From the IMG/VR virus record IMGVR_UViG_3300026156_000001, positions 1-63,261 of that record: a DNA stretch of 63,261 nt; one strand, 5' to 3'. This stretch comes from a virus. Taxonomy: Duplodnaviria; Caudoviricetes. The position numbers were made by a program, and so were the translations under genes. Within the stretch, counting starts at the first letter, position 1; each line of letters begins with the position of its first letter. Below the pieces are notes generated by a model that worked only from the letters and a program-made list of their open reading frames with translations, was not told where the DNA came from and made no database searches. Below, one piece after another: positions 33,748 through 59,843 of the stretch.

Positions 33748-36700
33748 ATGGATGAATTTGAAAAACTATATAACGTAGTTAGTGAAACTAAATTATACAG
33801 TAAATCTTTTGATGAATTTAAAGAGAAGTACTCGAACGAAGAAAACATAAATAAACTATATAACGTAGTTAGTGAAACTAAATTATACAGTAAATCTTTT
33901 GATGAATTTAAAGATAAATACTTTAATCAACAATCATTAACACCCCCTGTGTCAAAAAAAGCACAAGCCGTACCGAGTGGGGGATCAGAATCAGTATCGG
34001 CAAATATTACTTCTTCATCGGAGTCCGTAGATCCCAACAACGCTATAAAACTACAAGAAAGAGCGACTAAAGAAATCATTCAAGAGTATGAGAAACAAGG
34101 TGTAAAAAACTATAACATTACACCAGAAGAAGTCAATGAAAGAGCGACCGTAATACAGCTCAAAGATCAAACTACACCTGTATTCGATAGAAACTCATTA
34201 AACCTACCAGACAAAGATTATCAAGGTTTGGCTGCTTATGAAGCAACACAAAAACCAGACTATGAGAAATTTACTGTAGAAAAACAGAAAAAGAATTTTG
34301 AAGAATTAGCTAATAGAGATACTTTTAAGTACAAGAAAAGTATTATAAACGAACCTATAGATTACGAAAATACGGTTTTGAACTTTACTGATCAACAGAA
34401 AGAAGATATAGGTGTTCAAAAACCAGAAACCGTTAGTAAAATATATGGAGGTGATTTAGATCAATACGGTATAGATTTTGAAGATTTTAATGGTTATATA
34501 GAAGGTGGTAATAACAGAATCAAAAAATTGTACAAAGATGGTTATTTCACAGATGACACAACAGATTTTTTCAAATCTGAATCAGATGAAAAACTAATTA
34601 GAGAGGTTGCTAAAAACAATACTTTATCAGGATATGTTAAAGATAGGGTGGATTACTTAAACGGTAAATACCTAGGGTTAATCAATACAAACAATTTAGA
34701 AGGTGCTAGAAAAGTAGAAGACGAAATTAAAAAAATTACCAAAGGTTATCAACAATATGTTAATGATAAACTACCCACTTATAAAAAAGCAATCGACGAT
34801 AAGTTAGTAAAAGAATATGACGAATACAAAAACCAAAAGACACTAGGTGGTATTAAGAAAGAGAGAGGAATTACTGACTTACACAAAAAACTAGGTGATA
34901 TTACATTCGGTAATTTCTTCGGGGGTATTGGTAAAGCAACAAGTAACATAACCTCTTTCGCTTTAGACTTAGTAGGTTCAGAAGGGGAAGCGGAATATCA
35001 AAGAATGATACAAGAAACCAACGATGAGTTAGACCATAATTCATTAACCTATGGTGTTGTATCTGGTAAAAAAGTAAATCATAAAGGTAAAAACTTAATT
35101 GTTAGTAGTAAAGGTAGAATAATAGATACTGACGAAAGTAAAGATATTACATCAATTGCTGATAAAATAGGGATTGACAGAGATACTGTTTTAGAAAAAG
35201 CAAAACAATCAGAAGAGGAAGGTACTACATATAGCCTCATGGGGTTAATTAGTATGGGTGCTTCTACACTTGGTGATTTAGCAGTTCAACTAGCTACCAC
35301 TAAAGGTTTGTTAGGAGGAGCTAATAAAGTTAGTAAACTTAAAGCGTTAGGTACATCTATGGCTGTTCAGTCAGGTATGGTTACGTCATCTGTTTATGAA
35401 GACACATTATCACAACTTAGAAAAGCCAATATAAACGACGAAAAAGCTATAGGGGAAGCACTAGATTTGTCTTTTAATGCTGGGTTATTAACAGCAGGAT
35501 TATCTATTATATCCCCTGATACGAAAGCGTTAGGCGTGTCTTTAAAAGGTGTCGATAAAAAATTCTCAAAAGAATTAGCAGAATCCTATGTTAAGTTTGG
35601 TAAAGAAGGGTTTAAAAGAACGTTTGCTAAAAAAGCAGCAGAGAAAGGTATAGACTTGACATCAGAAGGTGGTAAGCAAGTATTAGAAGAATTAGGAGAA
35701 AATATAGGACAAAAAAAACTAAACGAAGGTGTCAATGAAGAAGTCGGAAAAGACGTATTAGACACCAAAATTACAAAAGGGGAAATCATCGAAACAGGAT
35801 TACTTTCTTTTTCTACTATTGGTTTAGTAACAGCTTTGAATAGTAAGTCTCCAAGCATCAATAAAGATAGGTTCGGAATGCTTGAATACTTTGCACAAGA
35901 TGTAGAGACTTCTAAAGAATTTATCAATAACTTCAAAGAAGAAGGTGCTATATCTGAAAGTAGTGCAAACGATATTATTAAAGATATCGAAACCTACGCT
36001 AAGTATTCAAACAAAATACCAGAGGATACACCTATAGAGAAACTAGACCCTTTACTAAAGGCTGTAGATAAACGTAACGAACTAGAGCTAAAGAAGAAAA
36101 ATCAAGATAAGGCTTTTCATAAAGAAATTAATGAAGAGATTGAAAAAGTAGATGAGGAAATAGCTGAAATAAGAAGTAGTAAAGTAGATGAAGAAATTAC
36201 TAAAGATCAAGAAACAGATGTAGATAATAAAACAGAAGATGTTTTATCGGATCAGGAGTACGAAAAAATGTTGGATGATTATAATACTGCAGTTGAGATT
36301 GGCGCTATTGACGAAAGTGCCATTACTGAATTGGAGTTAGCCGACCGCCGTAACGCAGAAGAGGGAGAACTTTTACAGGAAGAGTTAGAACTTTTAGACT
36401 CTACTGAAAAACAAACAGGAGATAAGTACGCGTTTATCCACAAAAACTTGAGAGGAATCAGATCTCAAGATTATGGAGGTATTGCTGGAGATAATAACCT
36501 AAGGAAAGATAATAAAAGTTTCAATATTTTATACGCCAATAAAAAAGCAATACCTTTGGATGGACAAGCACAGGTAATGTCCCAAAAATTTGGTGATGAG
36601 ATAACACCACAAGATATAATTGATTACGTGGAAGACAGGGAAAGAAACCCAGAAAAATATAAAACATCTAAAGACAAAAGAAAAAAATTAGAAAAAGCCA

Positions 36701-39700
36701 TTGAGATAAATTTTGATTTAGAATCTTCTACAGACGCATACAAAAGATATATGAATTTAGATGATTCTAAAGAATCTTTTGAAGCACTTGATAAATTAGA
36801 AGATAAGGTTTTAACAAATGAGCAAATCAGTATAATAAAAAAATATTTAAAACAAAAAGGAGATGTTAAAAAACAACTTAAAACCAACAAAACAACAAGT
36901 AGAGGTGTACAACAACTTGATGAGACTACTCAAAGAAGCGAGAGAAGAAATGAAGGAAAAGAAGAAAACAAAGGAGTAGAGAAAGTAGCTGGAACATCGG
37001 GTACTAAGACAAAAAATATAAAAGGTTTATATGATGTAAACCGAAAGATATTTAATCTAAATAGAGTTCAAGCATTAGCATCATCCGTTATTCAAGATAG
37101 AATGATTGGACAGATGGCTAAACGCGCAGGTATTTCTAAAGAAAAAATGTATGATAAGATTGAGTTTAAGAAAGGGGATAAAAACACTTTAAAAGATTTA
37201 CCAAAAGGTATTAAGTTTCAAATAGACGCTTTTCATGGAAGTCCTTATCAGTTTGATAAGTTCCAATTATCTAAAATAGGCACAGGAGAAGGTTTACAAG
37301 CATTTGGGTGGGGTTTGTACTTTACTGATTTAGAATCCATTGCAAGACATTATGCAAATGTTTTGTCAGAATACTCATTTTATATAAACGGTAAAAACGT
37401 AGATAATGTTAAGAAAGAATATCCATCTATTTATGTTGTTGGATTTGATTTACTTGGAGCAAAATCAAAACAAGATGCAATAAATGCAGTCAAAAACAGC
37501 AAGATAGCATCTAATAAACAAAAATCAAAAGCTATTGAATTATTAAACTCATTAGAGAGTTTTAGTTCCAAAAAAGATAGTCGGTTTTTATATGAAGTAA
37601 CCCTTTTTAAAGGTAAAACACCTGACCAATACACTTGGTTGGAGTGGGATAAGGAGTTAACAAAAGAACAAAAGCAAAAAATAGCAGAGCAAGCAATTAA
37701 AGAAGGTCTTACCAAAGTTGCTTACACAAATGAAAGTGGAGTGAATGTTTTAAACACTTCAAATAACATAACTGGTGAAACTTATTACAAAGAATTACAA
37801 AAATCTTTTTTACTTGGAAGCGACAAAGAAGTATCTTTATTTCTTTTAAGAGCAGGCATCGATGGCATAAAATACCCTGCCGAAAGCATATCAAGAGGAG
37901 CGACAAGTGATACGGCAAGAGGATTCAACTATGTTGTATTTGATGAAAATGCTGTAAGTATAGAAGAGGTAATCAAGTTTCAAAAGGATGCCGAAAAAAC
38001 TAGAGGTGCTGCTATGGTTAACATGGATGGAACAGCTATCATCTACGCTTTAACAGACCCTAACGTATCTACGCCACTTCACGAAATGGCACACGTTTAC
38101 GAGCATTATTTAAACGAATCAGAAAAAACAGCTATTAAACAATGGGCTAAAACTAAAGAGTGGACTACGGAAACATCAGAGAAATTCGCTAGAGGTTTTG
38201 AAAAATATTTAGCAGATGGTAAAGCACCTACTTCTGATTTAAGAAAAATGTTTGAGAGATTTAAAAAATGGTTAACTGATATTTATAATGGTATTAAAGA
38301 TAGTGAAATAGATCTTAAACTTAATGATGAAATGAAGACCATATACGATAAGATGTTAGGAGGAGATCAAGTAGAAAAACAGTCAGGATTAATAGAAAAA
38401 CAGTCAGGATTAACTAAAACAAAAAAACCAACTAAAAAAACAAAAACTTCTATTGATGAATCGAAAATAGAAGATGTAGATTTTGAAGAAGTCGATGGTA
38501 AAAAAGAAAAACCAAAAGATAAAGTAAGACCCGAAAAAGTTATTCATGAAGAGTATGTAGATAACGACGGTAACGAGTTAATTGCTACCACGACTAAAGA
38601 CGGAACTAAAACTTTCTACTACAAACAAAAAGGTAAATCATTTAGTTTTGGTACAGGTAAAAAGAAAACAGCTACACAACAAGAATTAGTCGATAACGGT
38701 ATTCTTTCAACTTCTACAACCCCTATTAAGTCTTACACTAGTTTGGATGCAGGTAAAGGTAAATCTTTTGAAAACGATTTAAAACAATTACTACAAGATA
38801 GAATTAAAGAGATCAAAACTCAAATAAAAGAAGAGAAGAAAGAATCGAAGAGATCTGTACTAATAGAAGAATTAAACAACAAAAAGAAACAGTTATCATC
38901 TTTAAACAAGGACACGACTAGAACAAACATGAGTCAAGAGTTAGATGAACAACTAGACGAGGTTATTGAAGAAATTAGTAAAAAAGAATCTGAAAAAGAA
39001 ACAAAACTCACTCAATTACAAAAACTTAATAAGTTTATATCTGGGGGTAGAAAAAGGGTATTTGGTTTTGTTAATAAAACCACATTACCTATAGTTTCTG
39101 AAATAGAGTTAATAGGTTCTAAGTTGTCTGAATTACAGATGATTTCAAAAGAGAATGCTAAAAAGTATAAGACCACATATAAAAAAGCATTAGAAAATTA
39201 CATTTTCAAAAGTAAATTAGACAAAGAAACAGCTAAGGTTAATCTAACAGGGATGGTTAAAGACCTAATGACACCTGTTGATAGGAATACAAATTCTAAA
39301 GATGCGTATGACCAACTTAGTAAAGTATCTAAAGATTTAGCCGATACAGTAATCGGACTAAGATCACACATCGATTCCTTCTCTAAAATAGTTACCGAAG
39401 ACCCTGCTTTTGAAAGAATGTCAGAAGAATCTAAACAAAACATATTAGACAATTTAGGGGATTATGTACATCAGACATATCTGTATTTTAAAGAAAAAGA
39501 TTACAACCCCTCAGAAGGTTTAATCAACGAAGCAATACGAGAAGAAGCTAAACAAATAATGATCGATGAAGGTATCGGTTATAAAAAAGCAATAGACAAA
39601 GCTACTAAAACAGTAAACGATTTACTAGAGAAATGGGACGATATTAGAAATCCTAAAAATACTTATTCTAGTATCAACACCTCTACAAACACTTTGTCCA

Positions 39701-41802
39701 TGAGTGATGATTCACTTAAAGCTAAGGTACGGAAAGCTAAAAACAAAAAACTATGGGATCAAGCAGTAAAAGAAGCATCTGAAAAATACCCTAAGTTTAA
39801 GAAAAACCACAAAATGGTTTTAGATGAAGCTATTTCTATTTATGAAGGTTTAGGTGGTTTATTTCAACCAATGCCCGACCATATTAAAAAGTTACTAGGG
39901 GATATTAAATTACCAGAAGATCAGTACTTATCTACAATGATGGCTGTTGGTAAAATGGTTTATAAAGCACAAGCGTTAAAAACAATAAACGATAGATTTT
40001 TTGGTGAGTTTATATTCAATGAAAAACCTACAAAAAACGCTAAAGAATACGTTCAGGTAAATGATAAATCTAGTCCGCTGCACGGTAAGTGGGTTAATGA
40101 GTTTATAGCTAAGGAGTTTGAACAAGAGCCTATCTATAAAGCTAATACTACAGTAGGTCAAATTTACTTCAATGCTTTGACAGCAATGCGTAAGTCTAAA
40201 ATCCTACCTACTTCGAGTACATGGTTTAAAAACATAACTGGTTTAGCTGTATTTGGTCAAATATTGAATGGTAACTTTATTCTTTTAGAAGACCCTAAGG
40301 CATTTTTTCAATCTGTTGCAGGTAGAGGTAAGATGATGTTTACTGGAAACAGAACCGATTTCACAAAACAAATATTTGCAGACGCAGCAGAAGCAGGTGT
40401 ATTATCTACAGATATAAACCTAATTACTATGGGTTATATAGATGATATGTACAAACAAATGAGTTTAGGGAATGAATCAGCAGCAATAAATAAATTCGAT
40501 AAACTACAGAAAACAATTAGAAGAGGAGCTGGAAAGTTAGATAAAGAACTCGGTCAGAGATATGCACAAGTAGATGATTATGGTAAAGCTATGGCTGTTT
40601 ACGCACAAAAAGGATCAATGGCTAAAAAACTATATGGTAAAGAATATAAGGATTTAACAGAAACAGAAAGGATCGATGTACTACGTCAAACAGGAAACGA
40701 TGTTAAGTTAGGAAACCCTACTTTTTCAAGATTACCTAGTTGGTTTAAAGACGTAGCTAGATTCCCTACAGGTGATTACGTTTCTTTTCAAATAGAAGCT
40801 ACTAGATCGTTTGTAGGTGCTATTGCGATAGCGTACAATGATATTAAAACAGTTTCTACAGGTGTTGATTTTAGAGGGAATAAGATCAACGATGTTCAGA
40901 GAAAAGCCTATTTAAAATCTTTCGGTAAAAGGTCAGCAGGAATTAGTCTAATTGTAGGGTTCAATTTACTACTGAAACATAGCATAGAATCTATTTATAG
41001 ATATTTTTCTGATGACGACGAAGAGGAAATAATATTGAAAAAAGAAGCCGTTAACCTAAGACCTTTTTGGGTTGATGATAATCTGATTATAGAAAATATA
41101 GATGAGAAAGGTAATGCTAAATTCATAGATTATTCTGGTCAAGACCCTTACGCTAAAACAATAGGTATGATGCATTTGGATTATAGTAGTGTCAAAGGAT
41201 TATTTGAGCCAAATATGCTAATAAGTTTAATACGTGAAGCGTATGGAGGTAAAACAGATTTTGGTCAGCAATTATACACTAAAGAAGAACACCCTTTCTT
41301 TAAATTTTTAAAAGGAGTAAAACATATATTGGTAGGAGGTTACACCCCTCCACAAGCAGTATCTATGATATACGGTGCTAAAAAAGCGAAAAAAGAAGAT
41401 GAGAATTGGGGGTCTGTTGGGGATTGGTCAAGATTAGCGGCGAGTAGAGCGGCTTTTAGAAAGTATGACTTTAATATCTACGCAAGCGCAACTAGTTTGG
41501 TATGGGATGTTACAGATGATGATTCTGCACCAAAATTAGGGTATAGTAAAAATGAAAGCCAAATGATATTTAGAATACAGAATATTAAAAAGGTAAGGGA
41601 TGCGGTTAACGTACTCAATATGCACTACTATAAGAACAAAAATAAAAATACCAACGAAGGTGTTTCTAAATTTCAGAATGCCTTAGTTAGAAATTTTAGC
41701 TCATGGGAGAGAAACAATTTAATCAGTGTTTCAGAAGAGGAGTTTATAAGACAAGTTGAAGACCTAAAAAAGAATCCACAAAAAGCAATAAAACAAAAAT
41801 AA
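33748..41802 (+). CDS. giant polyvalent virion protein with ADP-ribosyltransferase-like and zincin metallopeptidase-like domains
   Basis: 2684 aa; AFHGS..FDKF...IGTGEG.QAFGWGLYFT...GIDGIKY...NYVVFD; TPLHEMAH...SEKFARGFEKYL. Confidence 0.75.
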   Translation: MDEFEKLYNVVSETKLYSKSFDEFKEKYSNEENINKLYNVVSETKLYSKSFDEFKDKYFNQQSLTPPVSKKAQAVPSGGSESVSANITSSSESVDPNNAIKLQERATKEIIQEYEKQGVKNYNITPEEVNERATVIQLKDQTTPVFDRNSLNLPDKDYQGLAAYEATQKPDYEKFTVEKQKKNFEELANRDTFKYKKSIINEPIDYENTVLNFTDQQKEDIGVQKPETVSKIYGGDLDQYGIDFEDFNGYIEGGNNRIKKLYKDGYFTDDTTDFFKSESDEKLIREVAKNNTLSGYVKDRVDYLNGKYLGLINTNNLEGARKVEDEIKKITKGYQQYVNDKLPTYKKAIDDKLVKEYDEYKNQKTLGGIKKERGITDLHKKLGDITFGNFFGGIGKATSNITSFALDLVGSEGEAEYQRMIQETNDELDHNSLTYGVVSGKKVNHKGKNLIVSSKGRIIDTDESKDITSIADKIGIDRDTVLEKAKQSEEEGTTYSLMGLISMGASTLGDLAVQLATTKGLLGGANKVSKLKALGTSMAVQSGMVTSSVYEDTLSQLRKANINDEKAIGEALDLSFNAGLLTAGLSIISPDTKALGVSLKGVDKKFSKELAESYVKFGKEGFKRTFAKKAAEKGIDLTSEGGKQVLEELGENIGQKKLNEGVNEEVGKDVLDTKITKGEIIETGLLSFSTIGLVTALNSKSPSINKDRFGMLEYFAQDVETSKEFINNFKEEGAISESSANDIIKDIETYAKYSNKIPEDTPIEKLDPLLKAVDKRNELELKKKNQDKAFHKEINEEIEKVDEEIAEIRSSKVDEEITKDQETDVDNKTEDVLSDQEYEKMLDDYNTAVEIGAIDESAITELELADRRNAEEGELLQEELELLDSTEKQTGDKYAFIHKNLRGIRSQDYGGIAGDNNLRKDNKSFNILYANKKAIPLDGQAQVMSQKFGDEITPQDIIDYVEDRERNPEKYKTSKDKRKKLEKAIEINFDLESSTDAYKRYMNLDDSKESFEALDKLEDKVLTNEQISIIKKYLKQKGDVKKQLKTNKTTSRGVQQLDETTQRSERRNEGKEENKGVEKVAGTSGTKTKNIKGLYDVNRKIFNLNRVQALASSVIQDRMIGQMAKRAGISKEKMYDKIEFKKGDKNTLKDLPKGIKFQIDAFHGSPYQFDKFQLSKIGTGEGLQAFGWGLYFTDLESIARHYANVLSEYSFYINGKNVDNVKKEYPSIYVVGFDLLGAKSKQDAINAVKNSKIASNKQKSKAIELLNSLESFSSKKDSRFLYEVTLFKGKTPDQYTWLEWDKELTKEQKQKIAEQAIKEGLTKVAYTNESGVNVLNTSNNITGETYYKELQKSFLLGSDKEVSLFLLRAGIDGIKYPAESISRGATSDTARGFNYVVFDENAVSIEEVIKFQKDAEKTRGAAMVNMDGTAIIYALTDPNVSTPLHEMAHVYEHYLNESEKTAIKQWAKTKEWTTETSEKFARGFEKYLADGKAPTSDLRKMFERFKKWLTDIYNGIKDSEIDLKLNDEMKTIYDKMLGGDQVEKQSGLIEKQSGLTKTKKPTKKTKTSIDESKIEDVDFEEVDGKKEKPKDKVRPEKVIHEEYVDNDGNELIATTTKDGTKTFYYKQKGKSFSFGTGKKKTATQQELVDNGILSTSTTPIKSYTSLDAGKGKSFENDLKQLLQDRIKEIKTQIKEEKKESKRSVLIEELNNKKKQLSSLNKDTTRTNMSQELDEQLDEVIEEISKKESEKETKLTQLQKLNKFISGGRKRVFGFVNKTTLPIVSEIELIGSKLSELQMISKENAKKYKTTYKKALENYIFKSKLDKETAKVNLTGMVKDLMTPVDRNTNSKDAYDQLSKVSKDLADTVIGLRSHIDSFSKIVTEDPAFERMSEESKQNILDNLGDYVHQTYLYFKEKDYNPSEGLINEAIREEAKQIMIDEGIGYKKAIDKATKTVNDLLEKWDDIRNPKNTYSSINTSTNTLSMSDDSLKAKVRKAKNKKLWDQAVKEASEKYPKFKKNHKMVLDEAISIYEGLGGLFQPMPDHIKKLLGDIKLPEDQYLSTMMAVGKMVYKAQALKTINDRFFGEFIFNEKPTKNAKEYVQVNDKSSPLHGKWVNEFIAKEFEQEPIYKANTTVGQIYFNALTAMRKSKILPTSSTWFKNITGLAVFGQILNGNFILLEDPKAFFQSVAGRGKMMFTGNRTDFTKQIFADAAEAGVLSTDINLITMGYIDDMYKQMSLGNESAAINKFDKLQKTIRRGAGKLDKELGQRYAQVDDYGKAMAVYAQKGSMAKKLYGKEYKDLTETERIDVLRQTGNDVKLGNPTFSRLPSWFKDVARFPTGDYVSFQIEATRSFVGAIAIAYNDIKTVSTGVDFRGNKINDVQRKAYLKSFGKRSAGISLIVGFNLLLKHSIESIYRYFSDDDEEEIILKKEAVNLRPFWVDDNLIIENIDEKGNAKFIDYSGQDPYAKTIGMMHLDYSSVKGLFEPNMLISLIREAYGGKTDFGQQLYTKEEHPFFKFLKGVKHILVGGYTPPQAVSMIYGAKKAKKEDENWGSVGDWSRLAASRAAFRKYDFNIYASATSLVWDVTDDDSAPKLGYSKNESQMIFRIQNIKKVRDAVNVLNMHYYKNKNKNTNEGVSKFQNALVRNFSSWERNNLISVSEEEFIRQVEDLKKNPQKAIKQK
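33763..33914 (+). repeat. exact 62-bp direct repeat, 90-bp period
   Basis: 33763-33824 = 33853-33914, encoding KLYNVVSETKLYSKSFDEFK twice. Confidence 0.95.
38372..38413 (+). repeat. exact 21-bp tandem duplication
   Basis: TAGAAAAACAGTCAGGATTAA twice. Confidence 0.9.
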
Positions 41803-41993
41803 TGCCAACAAAGAAAACACCACCGAGTAAAAAGTACGCTAACGGTACTAAATACACTGATCCAGACGGTAAGACAAGGACTAGAAAGTCATACCCAAAA
41901 GGACACCCTAAACAAAAAGCATATTGTGCTAGGAGTGCTAAACAAAAACAAACAGAGAAAGTAAAGGTTAGACGTAAAGCATGGAAATGTTAA
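41802..41993 (+). CDS. small basic protein
   Basis: 63 aa with AYCARS...RRKAWKC pattern; coupled to the previous stop. Confidence 0.65.
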   Translation: MPTKKTPPSKKYANGTKYTDPDGKTRTRKSYPKGHPKQKAYCARSAKQKQTEKVKVRRKAWKC

Positions 41994-42004
41994 ATTAATC
42001 AATC

Positions 42005-42109
42005 ATGAAAAAAGCAACACAAAAATCCTGTTGGAAAGGATACGAAAAGAAAGGTACTAAAATAAAATCAGGTAAGAGAGTGAATAACTGTGTTAAAAAG
42101 AAAAAATAG
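42005..42109 (+). CDS. small basic peptide (CWKGY...NCV type)
   Basis: MKKATQKSCWKGYEKKGTKIKSGKRVNNCVKKKK; absent from the supplied track. Confidence 0.6.
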   Translation: MKKATQKSCWKGYEKKGTKIKSGKRVNNCVKKKK

Positions 42110-42143
42110 TTTTATATTTGTTGTTAATTCAAAATTCAATATT

Positions 42144-42398
42144 ATGAAAAAACTATTATTTATCGGATTACTAACACTAGGAATCTCAACATCGGTACAA
42201 GCACAATCACATAAAATGAAGATGTATTGTACAGGTTTTACAACAGGGTTTTATGATGGTTTTTGCTATACACAAGCACCATGTTATGAGCCAGTAGTTC
42301 CTGTATGTCCTACACCACATCGTCCAGATTTTACTTACATGGATGGATATCAAAGAGGTTTTACGCAAGGTAGAACAAAAGCTATTTATACGTTTTAA
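42144..42398 (+). CDS. small secreted Cys-containing protein
   Basis: Sec signal MKKLLFIGLLTLGISTSVQA|Q, 4 Cys, GF..GF..GF and GY..GF..G repeats; TATATTTG at 42113-42120. Confidence 0.7.
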   Translation: MKKLLFIGLLTLGISTSVQAQSHKMKMYCTGFTTGFYDGFCYTQAPCYEPVVPVCPTPHRPDFTYMDGYQRGFTQGRTKAIYTF

Positions 42399-42403
42399 TT
42401 TTG

Positions 42404-42411
42404 TATCTTTG
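42404..42411 (+). promoter_or_regulatory. -7 promoter element driving a non-coding region
   Basis: TATCTTTG with no sizeable ORF downstream. Confidence 0.6.
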
Positions 42412-42417
42412 ATTTAA

Positions 42418-42760
42418 CAGTACCTACTATGCCTCTGATCCGTAATAAACAAGCATACTAGAGTAGGTCTTTTAAGGTAATCGATCTTTACGGGGAGAGA
42501 TAAAACCTTTCAAGTTAGGTGAGAAGACGTTCAAGCAAACCTTGATAAATTTTTTAAATAGAAATTAAATAGTTAATTAGCAGGTCAATATTACATTAAA
42601 AATGTATAACTAGCTATAGCAAGGAGAAATGATGTTGACCAACAACCTTGTGTGCGTCCTGAGTTGGAAGACTATTTTTTATATAGGTTTTTATAGGTCT
42701 TATAACTCGCACCAAGCGGGGGTTTCCAGTATTGGAACGGGACTTATAAGAACTTTTTTT
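42418..42760 (+). ncRNA. putative ~340-nt structured RNA with pseudoknots and a tRNA-Leu-like acceptor element
   Basis: Many complementary segments found by eye, several with G-U pairs on the + strand; promoter upstream and T-run at 42754-42760; family unknown. Confidence 0.7.
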
Positions 42761-42769
42761 ATTTATGAC

Positions 42770-44020
42770 TTATTTAGTTATAATGTTCGGCATATATATC
42801 TCTAGTAATTTATAGAGTTTGTCTTTAAGTTCGATCTTTAGTTTTTTAGATCTATTTTGTTTTAATAAGATCATAAAGGAGCTAACTACTTTGTTGAATT
42901 TGAAAGACTCTGTATAAGAAAAAATCATTTTTTCAAAACTATCATAATCAATAGAATCTTCACCAGTTTCTGTAAGCCAATTGTTCCAACCCCTGATAAA
43001 TCTTTCAATACCTTTTATGTTTTTATCACTCCAACTCCCACCATCAAAATAATGTCCTATGAACATTAAATAGAATCGGACTACATCACTATCGTAGTTA
43101 TCAAGACTGACAACATTTCCTTTACTCTTACTCATTTTTTCACCATTGTTTAAAATCATCCCTTGATGAATTACTTTTTTAAATGGTTCTTCAAAATCTA
43201 TAAAACCAATATCGTTAAGAAACATAGTTATAAACCTTGAATAAATTAAGTGCATACAAGCGTGTTCTTTTCCACCAACGTATAAGTCAACAGGCTTAGG
43301 TTTAATTCCTTTTTTTAAGCAGTAAATAATAGTATAAATACTACTATCTACAAAAGTATCCATTGTATCATTTTCACCATCCAAAGGTATTTTACAACCC
43401 CAATTTCTTTGCCGACTAACGCACCAATCGTGTTGATTTTCTAACCAGTTTCTTTGAGCGTTAATGGTGCTTTTGGGGTAATCGATGGTATCAAGATTTT
43501 TAATCAATCTTTCTTTATAATCTGTTATTTTAAAATACCATTGATTAAGTGTTTTTTTAGTAGTAATATTTCCGCATCTCTCACATCTTTTTTCTTTGAT
43601 TTGTTCACGAGCCAAAACAGTATCGCACTCATTACAAAAATCTACTTCTGCATTTTTTTTGTACGCTAATCCATTTTTATAAAGTTGGGTAAAAAGCCAT
43701 TTTGAATGTTTTTGATAATCCTCATCGGAAGTGATAAGTAATTCTTCAAATTCAGTATTCATTTGTCTTATCTGAACTCTAAATTTATCAATGTTTTCAT
43801 AAGTAACATCTTTAGGATTTCTCCCTACTTTCTTCGCATAATTTTCAGCAGGTAATCCAAAAGAATCATACCCAAAAGGCTGGAAAACTTCATTACCTAT
43901 AAATCTTTGGTATCTACAATAACTATCTATTAACGCATAGTTATACCAATGTCCACAATGTAATCCGTTACCAGACGGATAAGGGAACATCGCTGTTATG
44001 TATTTATAATCCTTATTCAT
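42770..44020 (-). CDS. leuS: minimal leucyl-tRNA synthetase-like protein lacking the CP1 editing domain
   Basis: AMFPYPSG.GLHCGH, GYDSFGLPAEN, CxxC...CxxC, DWCVSRQRNWG, DTMDTFVDSS, DLYVGGKEHA..HL.Y.RF, KMSKSKGN; only 416 aa. Confidence 0.92.
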   Translation of the reverse strand: MNKDYKYITAMFPYPSGNGLHCGHWYNYALIDSYCRYQRFIGNEVFQPFGYDSFGLPAENYAKKVGRNPKDVTYENIDKFRVQIRQMNTEFEELLITSDEDYQKHSKWLFTQLYKNGLAYKKNAEVDFCNECDTVLAREQIKEKRCERCGNITTKKTLNQWYFKITDYKERLIKNLDTIDYPKSTINAQRNWLENQHDWCVSRQRNWGCKIPLDGENDTMDTFVDSSIYTIIYCLKKGIKPKPVDLYVGGKEHACMHLIYSRFITMFLNDIGFIDFEEPFKKVIHQGMILNNGEKMSKSKGNVVSLDNYDSDVVRFYLMFIGHYFDGGSWSDKNIKGIERFIRGWNNWLTETGEDSIDYDSFEKMIFSYTESFKFNKVVSSFMILLKQNRSKKLKIELKDKLYKLLEIYMPNIITK

Positions 44021-44023
44021 AAC

Positions 44024-44662
44024 TCATATTATATTCAATTTCAAAAACACTTCGTAATGATCACTAATTTCTTTAGCTGTATCATCAACCATTTTAACAA
44101 CTTCTTTAATTTTCTTTTTAGTAATCTTCTTGTCAATTGATAAGAACTTATCACCTAAAACCAACTTCTCTCTTTTAAAAAGATTCCCTTTCCTTTCTAT
44201 TAATATAACAGATGCTTTCTTGGGTAATACACCCAACTCTTGTTCTAAAGCAGCAGCGTAGATATATAGTTGAGAATACTCCTCAGAAATATAAACATCT
44301 TCTTTATTCATGTCTCCTGTTTTGTAGTCGATAATCTTTTCGATCTTACCATCTTTTGAGGTGTTGGTATCGATATAACCGATCACGTAGAAGTCTTTAC
44401 GGATGAGTCTCACCTCTCTTTCAAAAACATCATGGCGAGGGATACTCCTAAGTAACTCTTGTTCTTTATCGGAAAAGGTACTAAAGTCATTCTTCTCTAA
44501 TGCTTCTCCAATACGTTTACCAAACTCTGTATAACCATTACCTTCAAACTTTTCTTTGAGGAAATATTGCCTAATGTAGTCTCTACGATTCTTTAGAAAA
44601 CTACTTATTTGTGAGTAGGATAGGTATTGATTACCCTGTTTATCTTTTTTTGGGAGGATCAT
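44024..44662 (-). CDS. PD-(D/E)XK (Cas4/RecB-like) nuclease
   Basis: LSYSQI, E...GYID...IIDYKTG...QLYIY. Confidence 0.85.
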   Translation of the reverse strand: MILPKKDKQGNQYLSYSQISSFLKNRRDYIRQYFLKEKFEGNGYTEFGKRIGEALEKNDFSTFSDKEQELLRSIPRHDVFEREVRLIRKDFYVIGYIDTNTSKDGKIEKIIDYKTGDMNKEDVYISEEYSQLYIYAAALEQELGVLPKKASVILIERKGNLFKREKLVLGDKFLSIDKKITKKKIKEVVKMVDDTAKEISDHYEVFLKLNII

Positions 44663-44717
44663 TATGATGTTTTAACAAGTTATTCATTATGGATTAACTA
44701 TTACAGTTTATATGTAA

Positions 44718-44762
44718 TTAGATTGTAAGTTATTGGTAACTAAGCATTGTCGTTTTATTAAG
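44718..44762 (-). promoter_or_regulatory. conserved intergenic motif, copy 1 (copy 2 at 54548-54591)
   Basis: Both share TAAGTTATT.GTAA...ATT.TCGTTTTATTAAG on the + strand. Confidence 0.55.
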
Positions 44763-44778
44763 GGGGTTGTGTGTAATG

Positions 44779-44952
44779 CTACTTATCTCGCCAAGTCCAT
44801 CCTAAACACCATTTGCAAAACAATCGGTTTATTAACTTAGGTTTTTTTGTAAAAGCAAATTCAATAGTATTTACTTTTGTTCCTGTAATTTCGTAACTAC
44901 CTACAACTTTAGGTGTTTTAATTTGATTTGATATAAATGTGTTATTTTCCAT
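44779..44952 (-). CDS. small hypothetical protein
   Basis: MENNTFISN...KPKLINRLFCKWCLGWTWRDK; start moved to 44952 to avoid overlap with rtcB. Confidence 0.6.
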   Translation of the reverse strand: MENNTFISNQIKTPKVVGSYEITGTKVNTIEFAFTKKPKLINRLFCKWCLGWTWRDK

Positions 44953-44968
44953 TTTAATTAAGTTTGTG

Positions 44969-46354
<1,386 letters not shown>

Positions 46355-46358
46355 CTAC

Positions 46359-46454
46359 CGCCAACAACGGCTAAAATTAATAGCCTTATGATTCTTAGTT
46401 TTTTAATTGATTAGTTCATTACTTAGGCTACTAATCTTAGCCAAACCGTTAACA
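46359..46454. mobile_element. attC-like imperfect palindromic site
   Basis: GCCAAC-aac-GGCTAAaATTAaTAGCCT...AGGCTAcTAATcTTAGCC-aaacc-GTTAACA; abuts the stop codon of 46455-46856. Confidence 0.6.
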
Positions 46455-46856
46455 TTAATAGTACTCAGAATCAACATCAAGCAATATAAAATCTACTGAT
46501 TCAGAGTAGTATCCGTTACTTTCACCAAACCATCTAATATCTACATATCCTTTAATTGTTGCGAACTTATAGTAAGTCCAAGTACAAGAACCCCAATCTT
46601 CTAATTCTCTGGTTCGTTCAACATCTTCTTCTGAAGTTGGTTCGTAATTAGAAACCTCTTCCGCTTTTAATATTGGGCTTCCAACCAAGTCTTGTAAGTC
46701 ACCAACTATATCTTCAATAGTTACACTTTCGCAACATTCTTGTACGTGATACATTTTATATTGTTTTTCATCTTCACAAGTAAATATTATCTCGTCATTG
46801 TCGTTTTTTTCTACTTTAGTAAGTGTTTTACCAATCAATTCTTTTAATCTATTCAT
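46455..46856 (-). CDS. phage hypothetical protein
   Basis: [52 protein letters not shown]. Confidence 0.8.
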
Positions 46857-51880: not shown

Positions 51881-52209
51881 ATAAATCCTAGATTTACAGA
51901 CATATCCTTATCGTTATCAAAAATACCGTAAGAAATACCCCCATTTAGTTTAGTAGAATTACTGTCACCTGTTATCATAGGTGTAGAACAAGCATTCAAC
52001 TTGGTTATTTCATTGTCACCGTTGAAAATAATATTAACTCTTAACTCTTTATTGTCTATGTATTTTATGATACTGACCCATGAAGCACTTCCATCACTAA
52101 AACCATCCGATTCTACTTTATATTCTGATTTAGACAACGATTGTTCTATTAAAGACCTCATTGTTACCTCTTCTGACTCTCCTTTTTTATTTTTAATGTA
52201 TATTTTCAT
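51877..52209 (-). CDS. hypothetical protein ending in a 20-aa capsid-derived peptide
   Basis: C-terminal GGISYGIFDNDKDMSVNLGF is identical to the capsid protein; coupled to groEL and polB. Confidence 0.75.
   Translation of the reverse strand: MKIYIKNKKGESEEVTMRSLIEQSLSKSEYKVESDGFSDGSASWVSIIKYIDNKELRVNIIFNGDNEITKLNACSTPMITGDSNSTKLNGGISYGIFDNDKDMSVNLGFI
51882..51939 (-). repeat. inverted copy of capsid gene 23911-23968
   Basis: Reverse complement is 58/58 identical. Confidence 0.95.
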
Positions 52210-53816
52210 TATTTATCTTTAAAATCAGAGACAGTAGCCTCTGTGGTTAATATCATTGTTGCAATAGAAGCTGCGGATTCTAATGCGACTCTAGTAACTT
52301 TTTTAGGGTCTATCACACCAGCTTTCAATAAGTTTTCGTAATTATCTGTTTTGAGGTTATAACCTAAAGGATAAGAAGCGAAAGGTATATTCTTTAATAT
52401 TTTAGATGGTTTTAATCCAGCATTACTTAAAATCTTATCGATAGGGGACTTTAGAGATTTCAATAGAATATTCATCCCTTTCTTTATGTCTTTATTCTCC
52501 TCTTCCGTTATCGCATCGAACTCTAAAACAATAGACGCATCTAGTAATGCTATACCTCCTCCTGCGACAACACCTTCTTCTATAGCTGCTTTTGTTGCTG
52601 ATAATGCATCATCTATTCTATCTTTCTTTTCGTTCATCTCCACCTCTGTATTTGCACCAACATATATTACGGCTACACCTCCAACTAATTTGGCTATACG
52701 ATCTCTTAGGTCTTTTTCATCTACTTCGTGTTTGCAGTTTTCTGCTTGTTGTGTTAAATCATCAATTTGTTTTTTGATTAGTGTACTGTCCCCACCACCT
52801 TTTATGAGAGTGGTTCTTTCAGAATCAACTACAATTTTCTCTACCGAACCAAACATTGATTGATTAAATTTATCTACAGTATTCCCAGTATTCTCTGATA
52901 CTAATGTACTCCCTGTTAATACACATAGATCATTGACAAAATTAGTTCTTTTGTCTTGATAGGAAGGTGCTTTTATAGGTATAATCCTAGAGTTCCCTTT
53001 TAATTTATTATGTACTAGAGTTCCGATCACCTCTCCTTCAAAATCATGTGCTACAATTACTAGTGGTCTCTTTAGTTCTATAGATGCGTTTATGATAGGT
53101 AATATATCTTTTGCACTTGCTACCTTACCATCATAAAATATAATTAGTGGATTCTCATATTCTGCTGTTAATTTCTTAGGGTTTGTTACAAAATATGGTG
53201 ATAACAATCCATTGATGAATTGGGTTCCTTCTACCAATTCTACATAGGTTTTAGTATCTTTAGATTCTTCGACTCTGATTACCCCTTCTTTACCGACCTT
53301 ATCAAATGCTTTAGAGATAATCTCTCCTATGTACTCATCTCCGTTTGCTGAAATACAAGCTATGTTTTTCAAATCGTCTTTATCGGTTACTTTTTCAGAA
53401 ACAAAATCTAGTTCTTTTACTACGATATCCACAGCTTTATCGATGCCTCTTTTTAAATCCATAAGATTTACATGGCGAAAAAATGGTAGTTTAGATCTGT
53501 TGATTACTTTAATACCCTCATTAACAATACTTTTTGCTAGTACACAAGTGGTTGTTGTTCCATCCCCTGCTAGATCAACTGTTTTACTAGCTCCTTCGAT
53601 GAGTAATTGCCCACCCATGTTTTCTACAAAATCTGGTAGGGATATGCTCCTAGCTACAGTAACACCATCTTTAGTTACATGAGGATTACCGTAATTGTTT
53701 TGTAGTATTACGTTCCTACCTTTTGCACCAAGAGTTACTCCCACAGCATCGGCTACTTTATTAAGTCCTGTTTGTAGTTTTTTCCTAGATTCTTTGTTGA
53801 ATTTAATTTCTTTCAT
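52209..53816 (-). CDS. groEL: chaperonin GroEL (phage-encoded)
   Basis: VTLGAKGRNV, TKDGVTVA, GDGTTT, GGVAVIYVG, EEGVVAGGG, GVIDPKKVTR; no GGM tail. Confidence 0.96.
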   Translation of the reverse strand: MKEIKFNKESRKKLQTGLNKVADAVGVTLGAKGRNVILQNNYGNPHVTKDGVTVARSISLPDFVENMGGQLLIEGASKTVDLAGDGTTTTCVLAKSIVNEGIKVINRSKLPFFRHVNLMDLKRGIDKAVDIVVKELDFVSEKVTDKDDLKNIACISANGDEYIGEIISKAFDKVGKEGVIRVEESKDTKTYVELVEGTQFINGLLSPYFVTNPKKLTAEYENPLIIFYDGKVASAKDILPIINASIELKRPLVIVAHDFEGEVIGTLVHNKLKGNSRIIPIKAPSYQDKRTNFVNDLCVLTGSTLVSENTGNTVDKFNQSMFGSVEKIVVDSERTTLIKGGGDSTLIKKQIDDLTQQAENCKHEVDEKDLRDRIAKLVGGVAVIYVGANTEVEMNEKKDRIDDALSATKAAIEEGVVAGGGIALLDASIVLEFDAITEEENKDIKKGMNILLKSLKSPIDKILSNAGLKPSKILKNIPFASYPLGYNLKTDNYENLLKAGVIDPKKVTRVALESAASIATMILTTEATVSDFKDK

Positions 53817-57881: not shown

Positions 57882-59843
57882 TTAGAATAAATCGTTTGCA
57901 GTAATACTTTTGTCGTGTTTTGTGTACTCCACAGGTCTCTTAGCAAAAAAGTCATCAAGGGAATTAGCAAACACCTCTTCTTCAAACCATTGCATAGGTT
58001 TATATTCTTCCGAAGTAATATTAAATATTTTGTCTAATCCTATATTAGTTAAACTCTCATCTGCTCTAAACTTCATAAAATTTACTAAGTCTTTTTTACT
58101 AATACATTCAATTTCCCCTTTTTCAAAGATCCAATCCAAGATTTCTGATTCCACAGAAATGGAGTACTCTATAAGGTTAGAAATTTCTTGTTTGATGTTT
58201 TCATCAAAAAAATCAGGATTTTCATTCTTTATTTGGTTGATGATGTAGATGCCCGCATTGGCATGCACTTGCTCATCTACTGAAGTCCAAGCAATGATGT
58301 TGCTCACGTTTTTCATATAACCTTTGAAACGAGTAAATGATAGTACAATACCGAACTGGCTAAAAAGTGAAACATTCTCAATCAAAATAGAGAACAGAAT
58401 CAGTGAAAACACATATTTTTTAGGATCATCGGAATTACTGTGCTGTAATGCCTTGTTTAAATACTCTATTCTTTTTTTAATAACAGGCTCTTCCACCAAG
58501 TTTCTAAATTCGTCATCGTAACCCAATACAGATAATAATTGTGAGTATGCTTCTGAATGACGAAATTCACAATTACCAGATATTAAAACTTTGTTATTCA
58601 ACCTTGTAACTATACAACCTGTGGGAACGGTTACACAATGAATAGTTCCTTCATATTGCTCTTCGGTTATGTCAGATACGGTAGATGAAAAATTATCTCG
58701 TTTTAAAAAATTAACTTTATAAATATCATTATAAGTCTCTTTTCTTTTGTCTTCGTGTACTGTTAGATTCGATCTGTATGCTGCGAACATACCAATAGCT
58801 TGAACAATATCTGCGTTTTCTTTACTTGTGGTAGAATAAGAACCTGTACAAGTTTTATTATTATGTTTACCTATAAGATTATGTCCATCCCATTTCAAGA
58901 GTTCTTCAATAAATTCATTACACCAAACATGAGATTTATTTTCTAAATCTACCCACTCAAAAGACTTGTGAGAGTAGTCGGATTTAGGCATATCTACTTC
59001 AAATCTGGTAAGTTCTTTTTCTGATATATTGTATTCTCTATATGTAACACCTGTGTTTTTTAGTAACTCTCTTAACCTTTCTATTTTCTTTTCTTTTTTG
59101 AAAGTTAGTTCGTATGTGTTACAACCTGTACTAAGTCCTCTATTAATTCTTGTACCTTTTTTATTTCTCCAGAATCTTTCACATCCATCTGCTTGGATAG
59201 CTATCTTCAACCTATCCAAATCAGAAAGATTATCTACTTCTCCTGTTTTTCTACCGATATATGGTAACTTCATAGAGCTTGTTAGACTCTTTATGTCTTT
59301 GATTTTACGTTCTCTGATTATACCATGTAGGGTTTTATATATTATTCGGTGATTTGGAGTTAACATTGCAAAGTTACTACCGTTATCTATTTTGTAGATA
59401 GTACCTGTGTATTTCTCATTAACTATATTTGATGGAACTACTGTGCTATACTCACAAGTTTTAGTATCATATTGAATAACGCGATCTCCTTGTTTTAAAT
59501 CTCTAAAATCTAACCATCCTTCTGGTGTTAGTATTTCTGTTCCTTCTACATGACACTCTGCAAAAGTACTCCCTAGTCCATTAAATTCAGGCTTTGGGAG
59601 GTGTTTATATAGATCTCCCCAAAAAGACTTTACTGCTACTTCTATTTGTGCGATAGGTAGTAAACTTCTTTTGATGGCTTCTTTCTCGTGTGGTTCTAAA
59701 TGAGCATGAAAATCTTGAATGTCTGCTGTAAAATCTAGTTCAGAATGTACCCAAAAAGATTTGTTGATCATATCGGTAAACTTACTGATTTCTGGGTACT
59801 CGAAAGGTTTGTAGTTGGTTCTTTTTTTAAAAATATCTGGCAT
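57882..59843 (-). CDS. nrdB: class I ribonucleotide reductase beta subunit, intein-containing
   Basis: YKPFEYP, QIEVAVK, E..HSEAY, IENVSLFSQF, DEQVH, DFFAKRPVEY; 325 aa after intein removal. Confidence 0.93.
   Translation of the reverse strand: MPDIFKKRTNYKPFEYPEISKFTDMINKSFWVHSELDFTADIQDFHAHLEPHEKEAIKRSLLPIAQIEVAVKSFWGDLYKHLPKPEFNGLGSTFAECHVEGTEILTPEGWLDFRDLKQGDRVIQYDTKTCEYSTVVPSNIVNEKYTGTIYKIDNGSNFAMLTPNHRIIYKTLHGIIRERKIKDIKSLTSSMKLPYIGRKTGEVDNLSDLDRLKIAIQADGCERFWRNKKGTRINRGLSTGCNTYELTFKKEKKIERLRELLKNTGVTYREYNISEKELTRFEVDMPKSDYSHKSFEWVDLENKSHVWCNEFIEELLKWDGHNLIGKHNNKTCTGSYSTTSKENADIVQAIGMFAAYRSNLTVHEDKRKETYNDIYKVNFLKRDNFSSTVSDITEEQYEGTIHCVTVPTGCIVTRLNNKVLISGNCEFRHSEAYSQLLSVLGYDDEFRNLVEEPVIKKRIEYLNKALQHSNSDDPKKYVFSLILFSILIENVSLFSQFGIVLSFTRFKGYMKNVSNIIAWTSVDEQVHANAGIYIINQIKNENPDFFDENIKQEISNLIEYSISVESEILDWIFEKGEIECISKKDLVNFMKFRADESLTNIGLDKIFNITSEEYKPMQWFEEEVFANSLDDFFAKRPVEYTKHDKSITANDLF
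58572..59555 (-). mobile_element. intein (328 aa) with LAGLIDADG-type endonuclease
   Basis: TFAE|CHVEGTEILT...LTPNH...IAIQADG...LLKWDG...HCVTVPTG...ISGN|CEFRH. Confidence 0.92.

What the first reader, a model, noticed from the sequence alone, without database searches (positions are those of the whole stretch)
42770..44020. Half-size phage LeuRS without editing domain
Seen: intact HIGH-like (HCGH), Zn-knuckle and KMSKS motifs. QRNW runs almost directly into DWCVSRQR (no CP1 editing domain), the Leu-specific insertion is absent, and only about 115 aa follow KMSKS. Known: bacterial LeuRS is typically over 800 aa, CP1 loss is known in some Mycoplasma, and aaRS genes are mostly found in giant viruses and jumbo phages. 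Inference: clean in-frame domain deletions suggest selection for a minimal enzyme with relaxed fidelity or a non-standard substrate.
Basis: partly seen in the sequence, partly recalled or inferred. Interest (0 to 1): 0.72.

Follow-up and report, generated by a model that had tools for sequence, protein, structure and literature searches.

The report
Minimal phage leucyl-tRNA synthetase family
This phage gene encodes a half-size leucyl-tRNA synthetase that keeps the full leucine-activating core but has lost the proofreading and tRNA-elbow-binding domains, and it belongs to a conserved phage family that seems not to have been described.

Summary
ORF 42770..44020 (-) encodes 416 aa whose best family match is bacterial LeuRS (TIGR00396, E 1e-101, below the curated cut-off). 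HCGH, a four-Cys hairpin and KMSKS are intact.

Against the nearest full-length relatives it lacks four parts:
- the N-terminal 26-30 aa;
- the CP1 editing domain (199-226 aa);
- a 52-aa insertion after residue 213;
- the last 88-89 aa (distal anticodon-binding bundle plus C-terminal domain).

It is not a relic. At least 119 further 90%-identity clusters of 406-450 aa exist. 28 of 29 viral loci carry intact ORFs, 125 columns are invariant among 40 members, and dN/dS is 0.03-0.24. The AlphaFold model (pLDDT 92.7) matches Mycoplasma mobile LeuRS (TM 0.92).

The window is an about 86%-complete tailed phage with no tRNA gene. The family also occurs in 200-500 kb phages. There it is the only LeuRS homologue, and in three of four whole genomes it sits beside the tRNA-Leu cluster.

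Best reading (about 0.6): an editing-free minimal LeuRS that charges tRNA-Leu. The main doubt is the missing C-terminal domain, which E. coli and T. thermophilus LeuRS need. Seven literature searches found no description. It is a new variant of a known kind.

The parts
42770..44020 (-). Complete ORF (416 aa plus stop) of the minimal LeuRS
   Evidence: TIGR00396 E 9.8e-102. AlphaFold2 pLDDT 92.7, pTM 0.91. Foldseek best match 3ziu, TM 0.92 normalised to the query.
43949..43960 (-). HxGH signature (HCGH, residues 21-24)
   Evidence: H21, G23 and H24 are invariant in 40 family members.
43574..43636 (-). Four-Cys hairpin (C129, C132, C146, C149; called ZN1 or the CP1 hairpin). It carries E139 and R148, which align with N. 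gonorrhoeae LeuRS E169 and R178.
   Evidence: Role of E169/R178 from PMC9424281 passages.
43397..43456 (-). Junction where CP1 is missing: QRNW LENQH DWCVSRQRNWG. The 199-226 aa editing domain of full-length relatives would sit after residue 195.
43382..43384 (-). Codon of residue 213. After it, full-length and CP1-less relatives carry a 45-70 aa insertion. By its order along the sequence this is the Zn2 insertion of the N. gonorrhoeae LeuRS nomenclature. It is absent here.
   Evidence: Domain order from PMC9424281, Fig. 1 legend passage. The assignment to Zn2 is inferred.
43124..43138 (-). KMSKS signature (residues 295-299)
   Evidence: K295, M296 and K298 are invariant.
42773..42988 (-). Residues 345-416: remnant of the helical anticodon-binding bundle with the invariant FKFN.VVS..M motif. 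The protein ends where relatives continue for 79-109 aa.
44024..44662 (-). Upstream neighbour (context only): PD-(D/E)XK exonuclease. Its stop lies 3 nt before the LeuRS ATG.
44969..46321 (-). Context only: RtcB-type RNA ligase two genes upstream. It was not found beside the family member in the other 34 loci.

Best explanation
The gene encodes a catalytically competent, editing-free minimal LeuRS. It makes leucyl-adenylate in a fully conserved class Ia active site and transfers leucine to tRNA-Leu. In this roughly 73-kb phage the substrate would be host tRNA-Leu. In the huge phages it would be both host tRNA-Leu and the phage's own.

Recognition would rest on the acceptor end and discriminator only, because the tRNA-elbow-binding C-terminal domain is gone. 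Without CP1 there is no post-transfer proofreading.

For the phage it is an accessory gene that keeps or boosts the supply of Leu-tRNA-Leu during infection.

Shown here: architecture, conservation, purifying selection, fold and genomic linkage to tRNA-Leu. Inferred: adenylate formation, tRNA charging, lower fidelity and the benefit to the phage.
For: Active site:
- 80 positions are at least 93% conserved across 60 minimal, CP1-less and full-length LeuRS.
- These include HxGH, KMSKS, D52, the DT.DTF motif and EHA..H..Y.
- They also include E139, R148, W192 and Y260, which align with N. gonorrhoeae LeuRS E169, R178, W223 and Y554.

Selection:
- dN/dS is 0.034-0.241 in the 40 printed of 68 unsaturated pairs, out of 378 pairs.
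- 28 of 29 viral loci are intact.

Fold:
- pLDDT 92.7. TM 0.92 to M. mobile LeuRS and 0.83-0.88 to the N. gonorrhoeae, T. thermophilus and E. coli enzymes.

Only LeuRS in huge phages:
- In 5 huge-phage records (4 at least 97% complete) the minimal form is the only LeuRS-like gene. None scores above the family cut-off.

tRNA linkage, counting tRNAs within 2 kb of the gene:
- G010: 5 of 6 are Leu (6 Leu of 62 genome-wide; P 5e-6).
- G009: 7 of 8 (9 of 67; P 3e-7).
- G011: 4 of 8 (4 of 55; P 2e-4).
- In L033 a tRNA-Leu ends 15 nt before the ATG.

Compact synthetases in the same phages:
- Two of these huge phages carry MetRS of 462 and 468 aa.
Against: - The score is below the TIGR00396 equivalog cut-off (341.5 against 548.4).
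- The C-terminal domain is absent. Its deletion abolished aminoacylation in T. thermophilus and E. coli LeuRS (PMC3561953, Introduction).
- No replacement for that domain was found in the window or in 1.63 Mb of huge-phage DNA. tblastn has limited sensitivity.
- The window has no tRNA gene.
- 20 of 29 loci have no tRNA within 6 kb.
- The linkage is not significant in G008 (1 of 2; P 0.27).
- The hypergeometric tests treat tRNAs as independent, yet isoacceptors cluster by duplication and the genomes are related. The linkage may amount to one to a few events.
- An archaeal LeuRS paralogue, LeuRS-I, binds tRNA-Leu and makes Leu-AMP but does not aminoacylate (PMC9437257 passage).
- There are no biochemical data.
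Confidence: 0.6

Rival explanations
1. It is a leucine-activating, aaRS-like enzyme that does not charge tRNA-Leu for translation. It would make Leu-AMP and pass leucine to another acceptor (a small molecule, a protein, or a nucleotide within a tRNA). Alternatively it binds tRNA-Leu as a regulator or protector. Known truncated aaRS paralogues behave this way.
For: - Three tRNA-handling elements are missing: CP1, half of the anticodon-binding bundle and the C-terminal domain.
- Deleting the C-terminal domain abolishes charging in two bacterial LeuRS.
- LeuRS-I is a precedent. Truncated GluRS-like YadB and MshC are listed among aaRS paralogues in the reference list and table of the same review.
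- The gene occurs in two phage records of about 63-64 kb (CheckV 86% and 89% complete) that have no tRNA genes.
Against: - It is the only LeuRS homologue in complete huge-phage genomes, two of which were checked and also carry a compact MetRS.
- It is tightly linked to tRNA-Leu clusters in 3 of 4 whole genomes.
- The whole acceptor-end channel (DWxxSRQRxWG, KMSKS) is as conserved as in true LeuRS.
- There is no conserved neighbouring gene that could supply another acceptor or pathway.
Confidence: 0.2
2. It is a true LeuRS core that works only with a partner supplied in trans. The partner could be a host or phage tRNA-binding protein, or host LeuRS itself, replacing the lost C-terminal domain. 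Aquifex LeuRS, made of two subunits, is a precedent.
For: - The C-terminal domain is needed in studied bacterial LeuRS, and the Aquifex beta subunit binds tRNA-Leu (PMC3561953, Introduction).
- The ORF ends cleanly at the same point in the whole family and in the 530-aa sister form P0122.
Against: - No gene is conserved next to it across the 34 loci beyond one closely related subgroup.
- No C-terminal-domain-like or CP1-like ORF was found in the window, the flanks or 1.63 Mb of huge-phage DNA.
- The one marginal hit, in L028 (E 0.021), is not repeated elsewhere.
Confidence: 0.15
3. It is a decaying fragment of a captured host leuS gene, or an assembly artefact, with no function.
For: It is below the family cut-off. 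In one run a short contig of a related variant joins 42757 to 44013, so that variant lacks the gene and the gene is dispensable for it.
Against: - dN/dS is far below 1.
- 125 columns are invariant.
- 119 further clusters share the same length.
- Contigs from a run of another study are identical over the whole gene.
- Identity to a Flavobacterium-type LeuRS is only 33% over the N-terminal alignment.
Confidence: 0.02

Closest known systems
Mycoplasma mobile LeuRS (PDB 3ziu; 637 aa, naturally without CP1)
   Same: - Bacterial-type LeuRS core with the CP1 editing domain missing.
- Best sequence hit (E 3.6e-71) and best structural hit (TM 0.92).
- HxGH, KMSKS and the acceptor-channel motif align.
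   Different: - The M. mobile enzyme keeps about 80 residues where this protein has 16 (chain 275-355 against query 226-241).
- It continues well beyond the point where this protein ends (chain 637 aa; query 388 aligns with chain 520).
- It is a cellular housekeeping enzyme. This one is a phage accessory gene, 221 aa shorter.
- That M. mobile LeuRS mischarges is recalled from Li et al. 2011. The paper was not held.
Canonical bacterial LeuRS (TIGR00396; T. thermophilus, E. coli, N. gonorrhoeae structures)
   Same: - The same catalytic residues, CP1 hairpin, CP2 helices and SC-fold.
- 80 positions at least 93% conserved.
- TM 0.83-0.88 over the query.
   Different: - Lacks the N-terminal 26-30 aa, CP1 (199-226 aa), the 52-aa insertion after residue 213 and the last 88-89 aa.
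- Lacks the Leu-specific domain of the T. thermophilus and N. gonorrhoeae type.
- Scores 341.5 bits against a cut-off of 548.4.
CP1-less metagenomic LeuRS of 530-706 aa (e.g. P0124, P0128, P0131, P0134) and the 530-aa form P0122
   Same: - Loss of CP1 recurs in this part of the LeuRS tree. Starred branches force at least 7 changes of that label.
- P0122 shares the same C-terminal end and lacks the 52-aa insertion.
- P0122 groups with the minimal family (SH-aLRT 100).
   Different: - The 569-706 aa forms keep the 45-54 aa insertion and the C-terminal 79-93 aa, including a Pfam Anticodon_1 hit.
- P0122 keeps a 115-aa CP1 remnant (PF13603, E 1.3e-20).
Archaeal LeuRS-I (Sulfolobaceae) and engineered LeuRS urzymes
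   Same: These are LeuRS derivatives with lost or disrupted CP1 and tRNA-binding parts that still activate leucine. Sources: PMC9437257 passage; abstracts of PMC10450160 and bioRxiv 2025.04.05.647346, seen in search listings only.
   Different: - LeuRS-I is archaeal-type and full-size, and does not aminoacylate.
- Urzymes are laboratory constructs.
- Neither is a natural, conserved, roughly 420-aa bacterial-type enzyme carried by phages.

Membership tests
Bacterial LeuRS (NCBIfam TIGR00396 equivalog) | Whole-protein score at or above the curated cut-off (548.4 bits) | tested here: not met
   341.5 bits, E 9.8e-102, in 3 stretches. The five huge-phage homologues are also all below the cut-off.
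Bacterial LeuRS (NCBIfam TIGR00396 equivalog) | Class I signatures HxGH and KMSKS | tested here: met
   HCGH at 21-24 and KMSKS at 295-299. Invariant in the family.
   They align with M11, F12, Y14, D52, F223, Y229, H253 and H257. Seven are invariant in 40 members; M11 is conserved in at least 90%.
Bacterial LeuRS (NCBIfam TIGR00396 equivalog) | CP1 editing domain (Pfam PF13603) | tested here: not met
   No hit at E <= 0.01. A 199-226 aa gap after residue 195 against P0125, P0129 and P0130.
Bacterial LeuRS (NCBIfam TIGR00396 equivalog) | Complete anticodon-binding helical bundle (Pfam PF08264) and C-terminal tRNA-elbow-binding domain | tested here: not met
   No PF08264 hit. The protein ends 88-89 aa before P0125 and P0129. 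Three helices (359-407) remain in the model.
Bacterial LeuRS (NCBIfam TIGR00396 equivalog) | Leucylation of tRNA-Leu | not testable with these tools
   Indirect only: linkage to tRNA-Leu genes.
Naturally CP1-less LeuRS (M. mobile type) | CP1 absent while the insertion after the SRQRxWG motif, the anticodon-binding domain and the C-terminal domain are kept | tested here: not met
   CP1 is absent (met). The region matching chain 275-355 of 3ziu is reduced to 16 aa, and the C-terminal roughly 90 aa are absent.
Phage auxiliary translation genes (aaRS of huge phages, Al-Shayeb et al. 2020) | aaRS homologue encoded in a phage genome, distinct from the host enzyme | tested here: met
   - Phage hallmark genes in the window.
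- 29 viral loci.
- 66.5% identity to a 634,780-bp uncultured phage record, LR745206.1.
- Only 33% identity (N-terminal alignment) to a Flavobacterium-type LeuRS.
- In the passages I read, the paper reports up to 15 synthetases per huge phage and says nothing about truncation. Its supplements could not be seen.

The most novel reading that the evidence does not exclude
The family is the smallest natural LeuRS, and it charges tRNA without reading the elbow or the long variable arm. That freed huge phages to evolve their own tRNA-Leu species with a short variable arm. These 73-75 nt tRNAs keep A73 and lie in the clusters next to the gene.

Together the enzyme and these tRNAs would form a phage-private, editing-free leucine-decoding channel. 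In effect this would be a natural candidate for an orthogonal LeuRS:tRNA pair.
Probability: 0.2. Interest if true: 0.8.

Novelty: new variant of a known kind. Interest (0 to 1): 0.64.

Why it matters
LeuRS has served as a model for how editing and tRNA-binding domains were added to a class I catalytic core. In E. coli and T. thermophilus LeuRS, removing the C-terminal domain abolishes charging.

A natural 416-aa LeuRS that is abundant and strongly conserved would matter in several ways if it is active:
- It would define the minimal working LeuRS.
- It would show that leucylation can proceed without elbow recognition or proofreading.
- It would give a compact scaffold for engineering.

For phage biology, it shows that a synthetase gene is not confined to huge phages. 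A phage of roughly 73 kb with no tRNA genes carries one. This raises the question of why leucine charging in particular limits infection.

Tried and rejected
- Conserved partner gene. BLASTP of the ORFs of 34 loci against window proteins, and clustering of the loci's ORFs among themselves, found only the LeuRS itself, antisense shadow ORFs within it, and families limited to one closely related subgroup. RtcB and the exonuclease are not conserved neighbours.
- Domains supplied in trans. tblastn with C-terminal, CP1 and 52-aa pieces of relatives found nothing in the window at E <= 1. It found nothing at E <= 0.1 in 1.63 Mb of huge-phage DNA.
- Recent capture from the host. Rejected: 33% identity over the N-terminal alignment to the LeuRS of a Flavobacterium MAG, against 48% to P0125.
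- Expression. No RNA holder was listed among 17 runs. This is no evidence either way.
- Promoter and terminator scan of 41900-46500. Not above the shuffled expectation.
- Earlier findings of this scan were not open. The cluster-member look-up, for names and taxa of relatives, was switched off.
- Li et al. 2011 on M. mobile LeuRS is not held.
- The careful tree search did not finish. The quick IQ-TREE tree was used instead.
- Literature. Seven searches found no description of a roughly 420-aa phage LeuRS. Supplementary tables of Al-Shayeb et al. 2020 may list such genes and could not be seen.

Full report
**The observation**

ORF 42770..44020 on the minus strand is intact and encodes 416 aa. 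Translating the window coordinates gives these motifs:
- HCGH at residues 21-24.
- A CNEC...CERC four-Cys hairpin at 129-149.
- QRNWLENQHDWCVSRQRNWG at 189-208.
- KMSKS at 295-299, with 117 aa after it.

The best NCBIfam family is bacterial LeuRS (TIGR00396, E 9.8e-102). The match falls in three stretches and scores 341.5 bits against a cut-off of 548.4. Pfam finds only class I catalytic-core families. It finds no editing domain and no Anticodon_1. The best solved relative is the naturally CP1-less Mycoplasma mobile LeuRS (E 3.6e-71), followed by the T. thermophilus, N. gonorrhoeae and E. coli enzymes.

**What is missing**

I aligned 60 sequences: 28 minimal forms, 14 forms of 530-706 aa and 18 full-length forms. 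Against the nearest full-length representatives (P0125, 835 aa; P0129, 827 aa) the protein lacks four parts:
- the N-terminal 26-30 aa;
- 199-226 aa after residue 195, which those proteins show as Pfam PF13603, the editing domain;
- 52 aa after residue 213;
- the last 88-89 aa.

By its order along the sequence, the 52-aa piece corresponds to the Zn2 insertion in the domain scheme of N. gonorrhoeae LeuRS. I read that scheme in passages of PMC9424281, and the assignment is my inference.

The Leu-specific domain of the T. thermophilus type (residues 580-636) also has no counterpart. The nearest full-length relatives lack an insertion of that size too, so that absence is not peculiar to this gene.

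**What is kept**

80 positions are at least 93% conserved across all 60 sequences. Residues M11, F12, Y14, D52, F223, Y229, H253 and H257 align with T. thermophilus M40, F41, Y43, D80, F501, Y507, H541 and H545.

E139, R148, W192, M256 and Y260 align with N. gonorrhoeae E169, R178, W223, L550 and Y554 (chain index minus one). The paper implicates those residues in closing the hairpin over ATP.

Only seven positions set the minimal family apart from the other LeuRS: F49, K169, L193, E194, I259, H323 and V378. I see no sign of a changed amino-acid specificity.

**Fold**

AlphaFold2, run on the 60-sequence alignment, gives mean pLDDT 92.7 and pTM 0.91. The model is one compact body. After KMSKS come an SC-fold-like beta-alpha unit and three helices at 359-407. 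Foldseek places it on M. mobile LeuRS with a query-normalised TM of 0.92, and on other bacterial LeuRS with 0.83-0.88.

**It is a family, not a relic**

- The word-indexed protein search scored 8000 candidates of 228-728 aa. The best 120 rows, the query included, are all 406-450 aa and 73-100% identical.
- In the library clustered at 50% identity, the family collapses to one full-size representative (P0121, 429 aa), some fragments, and a 530-aa sister form, P0122.
- A scan of viral contigs returned 29 loci on contigs of 13 to 519 kb. 28 of them carry an intact ORF of 410-487 aa. L035 is cut at 263 aa.
- Among 40 members, 125 columns are invariant.
- Nei-Gojobori estimates on 28 coding sequences gave 68 of 378 pairs with dS between 0.05 and 1.5. 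The 40 with the lowest dS have dN/dS of 0.034-0.241. All pairs involving the window are at or beyond dS 1.5.
- In a run of another study, two contigs are identical to the window over the whole gene.
- A quick maximum-likelihood tree puts the 28 minimal rows on one side of a branch (SH-aLRT 92). With P0122 they lie behind a long, fully supported branch. CP1-less forms of 530-706 aa are scattered among full-length ones. The careful search did not finish.

**Where it lives**

The window is a whole IMG/VR record with a CheckV completeness of 86%. It carries these genes:
- terminase, portal and virion proteins;
- DNA polymerase and primase-polymerase;
- both ribonucleotide reductase subunits;
- GroEL and RtcB.

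ARAGORN finds no tRNA in it. A second record of 63.9 kb (89% complete) with a 66%-identical homologue also has no tRNA match.

Most other carriers are huge phages or fragments of them. The closest hit in the GenBank phage collection is a 634,780-bp uncultured phage, at 66.5% identity over residues 1-411. In the species-genome collection there are only 5 loci. All lie on MAG contigs of 1.6-34.6 kb. Four of these MAGs are labelled Bacteroidetes, Bacteroidota, Flavobacteriaceae or Flavobacterium, and one of the contigs is also an IMG/VR record. The host phylum is therefore a weak inference.

The gene is not a recent copy of such a host's leuS. Identity to a Flavobacterium-type LeuRS is 33% over the N-terminal alignment, against 48% to P0125.

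No neighbouring gene is conserved across loci. In one run, a 195-nt contig of a related variant joins 42757 to 44013 and so skips the gene. This fits an accessory gene that is gained and lost.

**Link to tRNA-Leu**

Nine of the 29 loci have tRNA genes within 6 kb. Seven of these have tRNAs upstream, or six distinct ones, because L031 and L032 are the same sequence. The nearest upstream tRNA is tRNA-Leu in six of the seven (five of the six distinct).

I then read four whole huge-phage records piece by piece. Counts of tRNAs within 2 kb of the gene, with hypergeometric P values:

| Record | Leu of tRNAs within 2 kb | Leu of all tRNAs | P |
|---|---|---|---|
| G010 | 5 of 6 | 6 of 62 | 5e-6 |
| G009 | 7 of 8 | 9 of 67 | 3e-7 |
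| G011 | 4 of 8 | 4 of 55 | 2e-4 |
| G008 | 1 of 2 | 6 of 41 | 0.27 |

These tests treat tRNAs as independent. Isoacceptors cluster by duplication and the genomes are related, so the linkage may reflect only a few events.

In five huge-phage records, four of them at least 97% complete, the minimal form is the only LeuRS-like gene. Two of them also carry a compact MetRS of 462 or 468 aa.

**Mechanism**

I think the protein most likely activates leucine and charges tRNA-Leu without proofreading (confidence 0.6). The active site, the selection on it and the tRNA-Leu linkage argue for this.

The main argument against is the missing C-terminal domain. According to the Introduction of PMC3561953, it contacts the tRNA elbow and the long variable arm, and its deletion abolishes aminoacylation in T. 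thermophilus and E. coli LeuRS.

The rivals are:
- a leucine-activating enzyme with another acceptor, or a tRNA-binding role (0.2; precedent LeuRS-I);
- a core that needs a partner in trans (0.15; no candidate found);
- a functionless relic (0.02).

**Novelty**

Al-Shayeb et al. 2020 report up to 15 synthetases per huge phage. In the passages I read they say nothing about truncated forms, and their supplements could not be seen. Seven full-text searches found no description of a roughly 420-aa LeuRS.

I file it as a new variant of a known kind. It works like a LeuRS core but fails three architectural tests for membership of the canonical family.

Noticed in passing
G010 269566-270271 and 284848-284920; G009 169169-169543; G008 40849-40922 and 83561-83634 (also L028 4806-5180, L031 3937-4642, L022 4797-4870): Huge phages that carry the minimal LeuRS encode tRNAs with Leu anticodons (CAA, TAA, TAG) that are only 73-75 nt long, so they lack the long variable arm. 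They keep A before the 3' end. Six of the nine in the three whole genomes sit in the tRNA-Leu cluster next to the gene. One (G010 269566) is 80-81% identical to long-arm tRNA-Leu genes of the same genome.
   Followed up: partly
window 42757/44013 (run X4): A 195-nt contig of a related variant (about 92-97% alike) joins the two flanks and skips 1255 bases, which is the whole minimal LeuRS gene. This suggests presence/absence polymorphism of the gene.
   Followed up: partly
window 57882-59843 (-): The ribonucleotide reductase small subunit is 653 aa. It has a weak intein-splicing-domain hit, below the Pfam cut-off (PF14890, residues 117-407), splitting the PF00268 match.
   Followed up: no
window 33748-41802 (+): A 2684-aa ORF lies at the end of the structural module. 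It has only a weak PHROG match of unknown function (phrog_9880, E 7e-16) and contains an HEMAH-type zincin-like motif.
   Followed up: no
window 52209-53816 (-) and 44969-46321 (-): The phage encodes a GroEL-type chaperonin (535 aa) and an RtcB RNA ligase (450 aa). RtcB lies two genes upstream of the LeuRS, but this arrangement is not conserved in the other loci.
   Followed up: partly
L079 1438-2844 (G011) and L102 4835-6223 (G008): Two of these huge phages carry compact MetRS genes of 468 and 462 aa. They cover profile positions 5-482 of a 648-position MetRS model and score below its cut-off.
   Followed up: partly
L029 5983-7254: One family member has lost all four Cys of the hairpin (WDPIDQT...ADRSG). 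N. gonorrhoeae LeuRS has a similar Cys-free hairpin.
   Followed up: no
phage records LR756501.1 / LR756503.1, 192060-193463 (-): The 735-kb uncultured phage has a one-piece match of 1404 nt (33.5% identity, query residues 7-383). This looks like another short, CP1-less LeuRS form more distant from this family.
   Followed up: no
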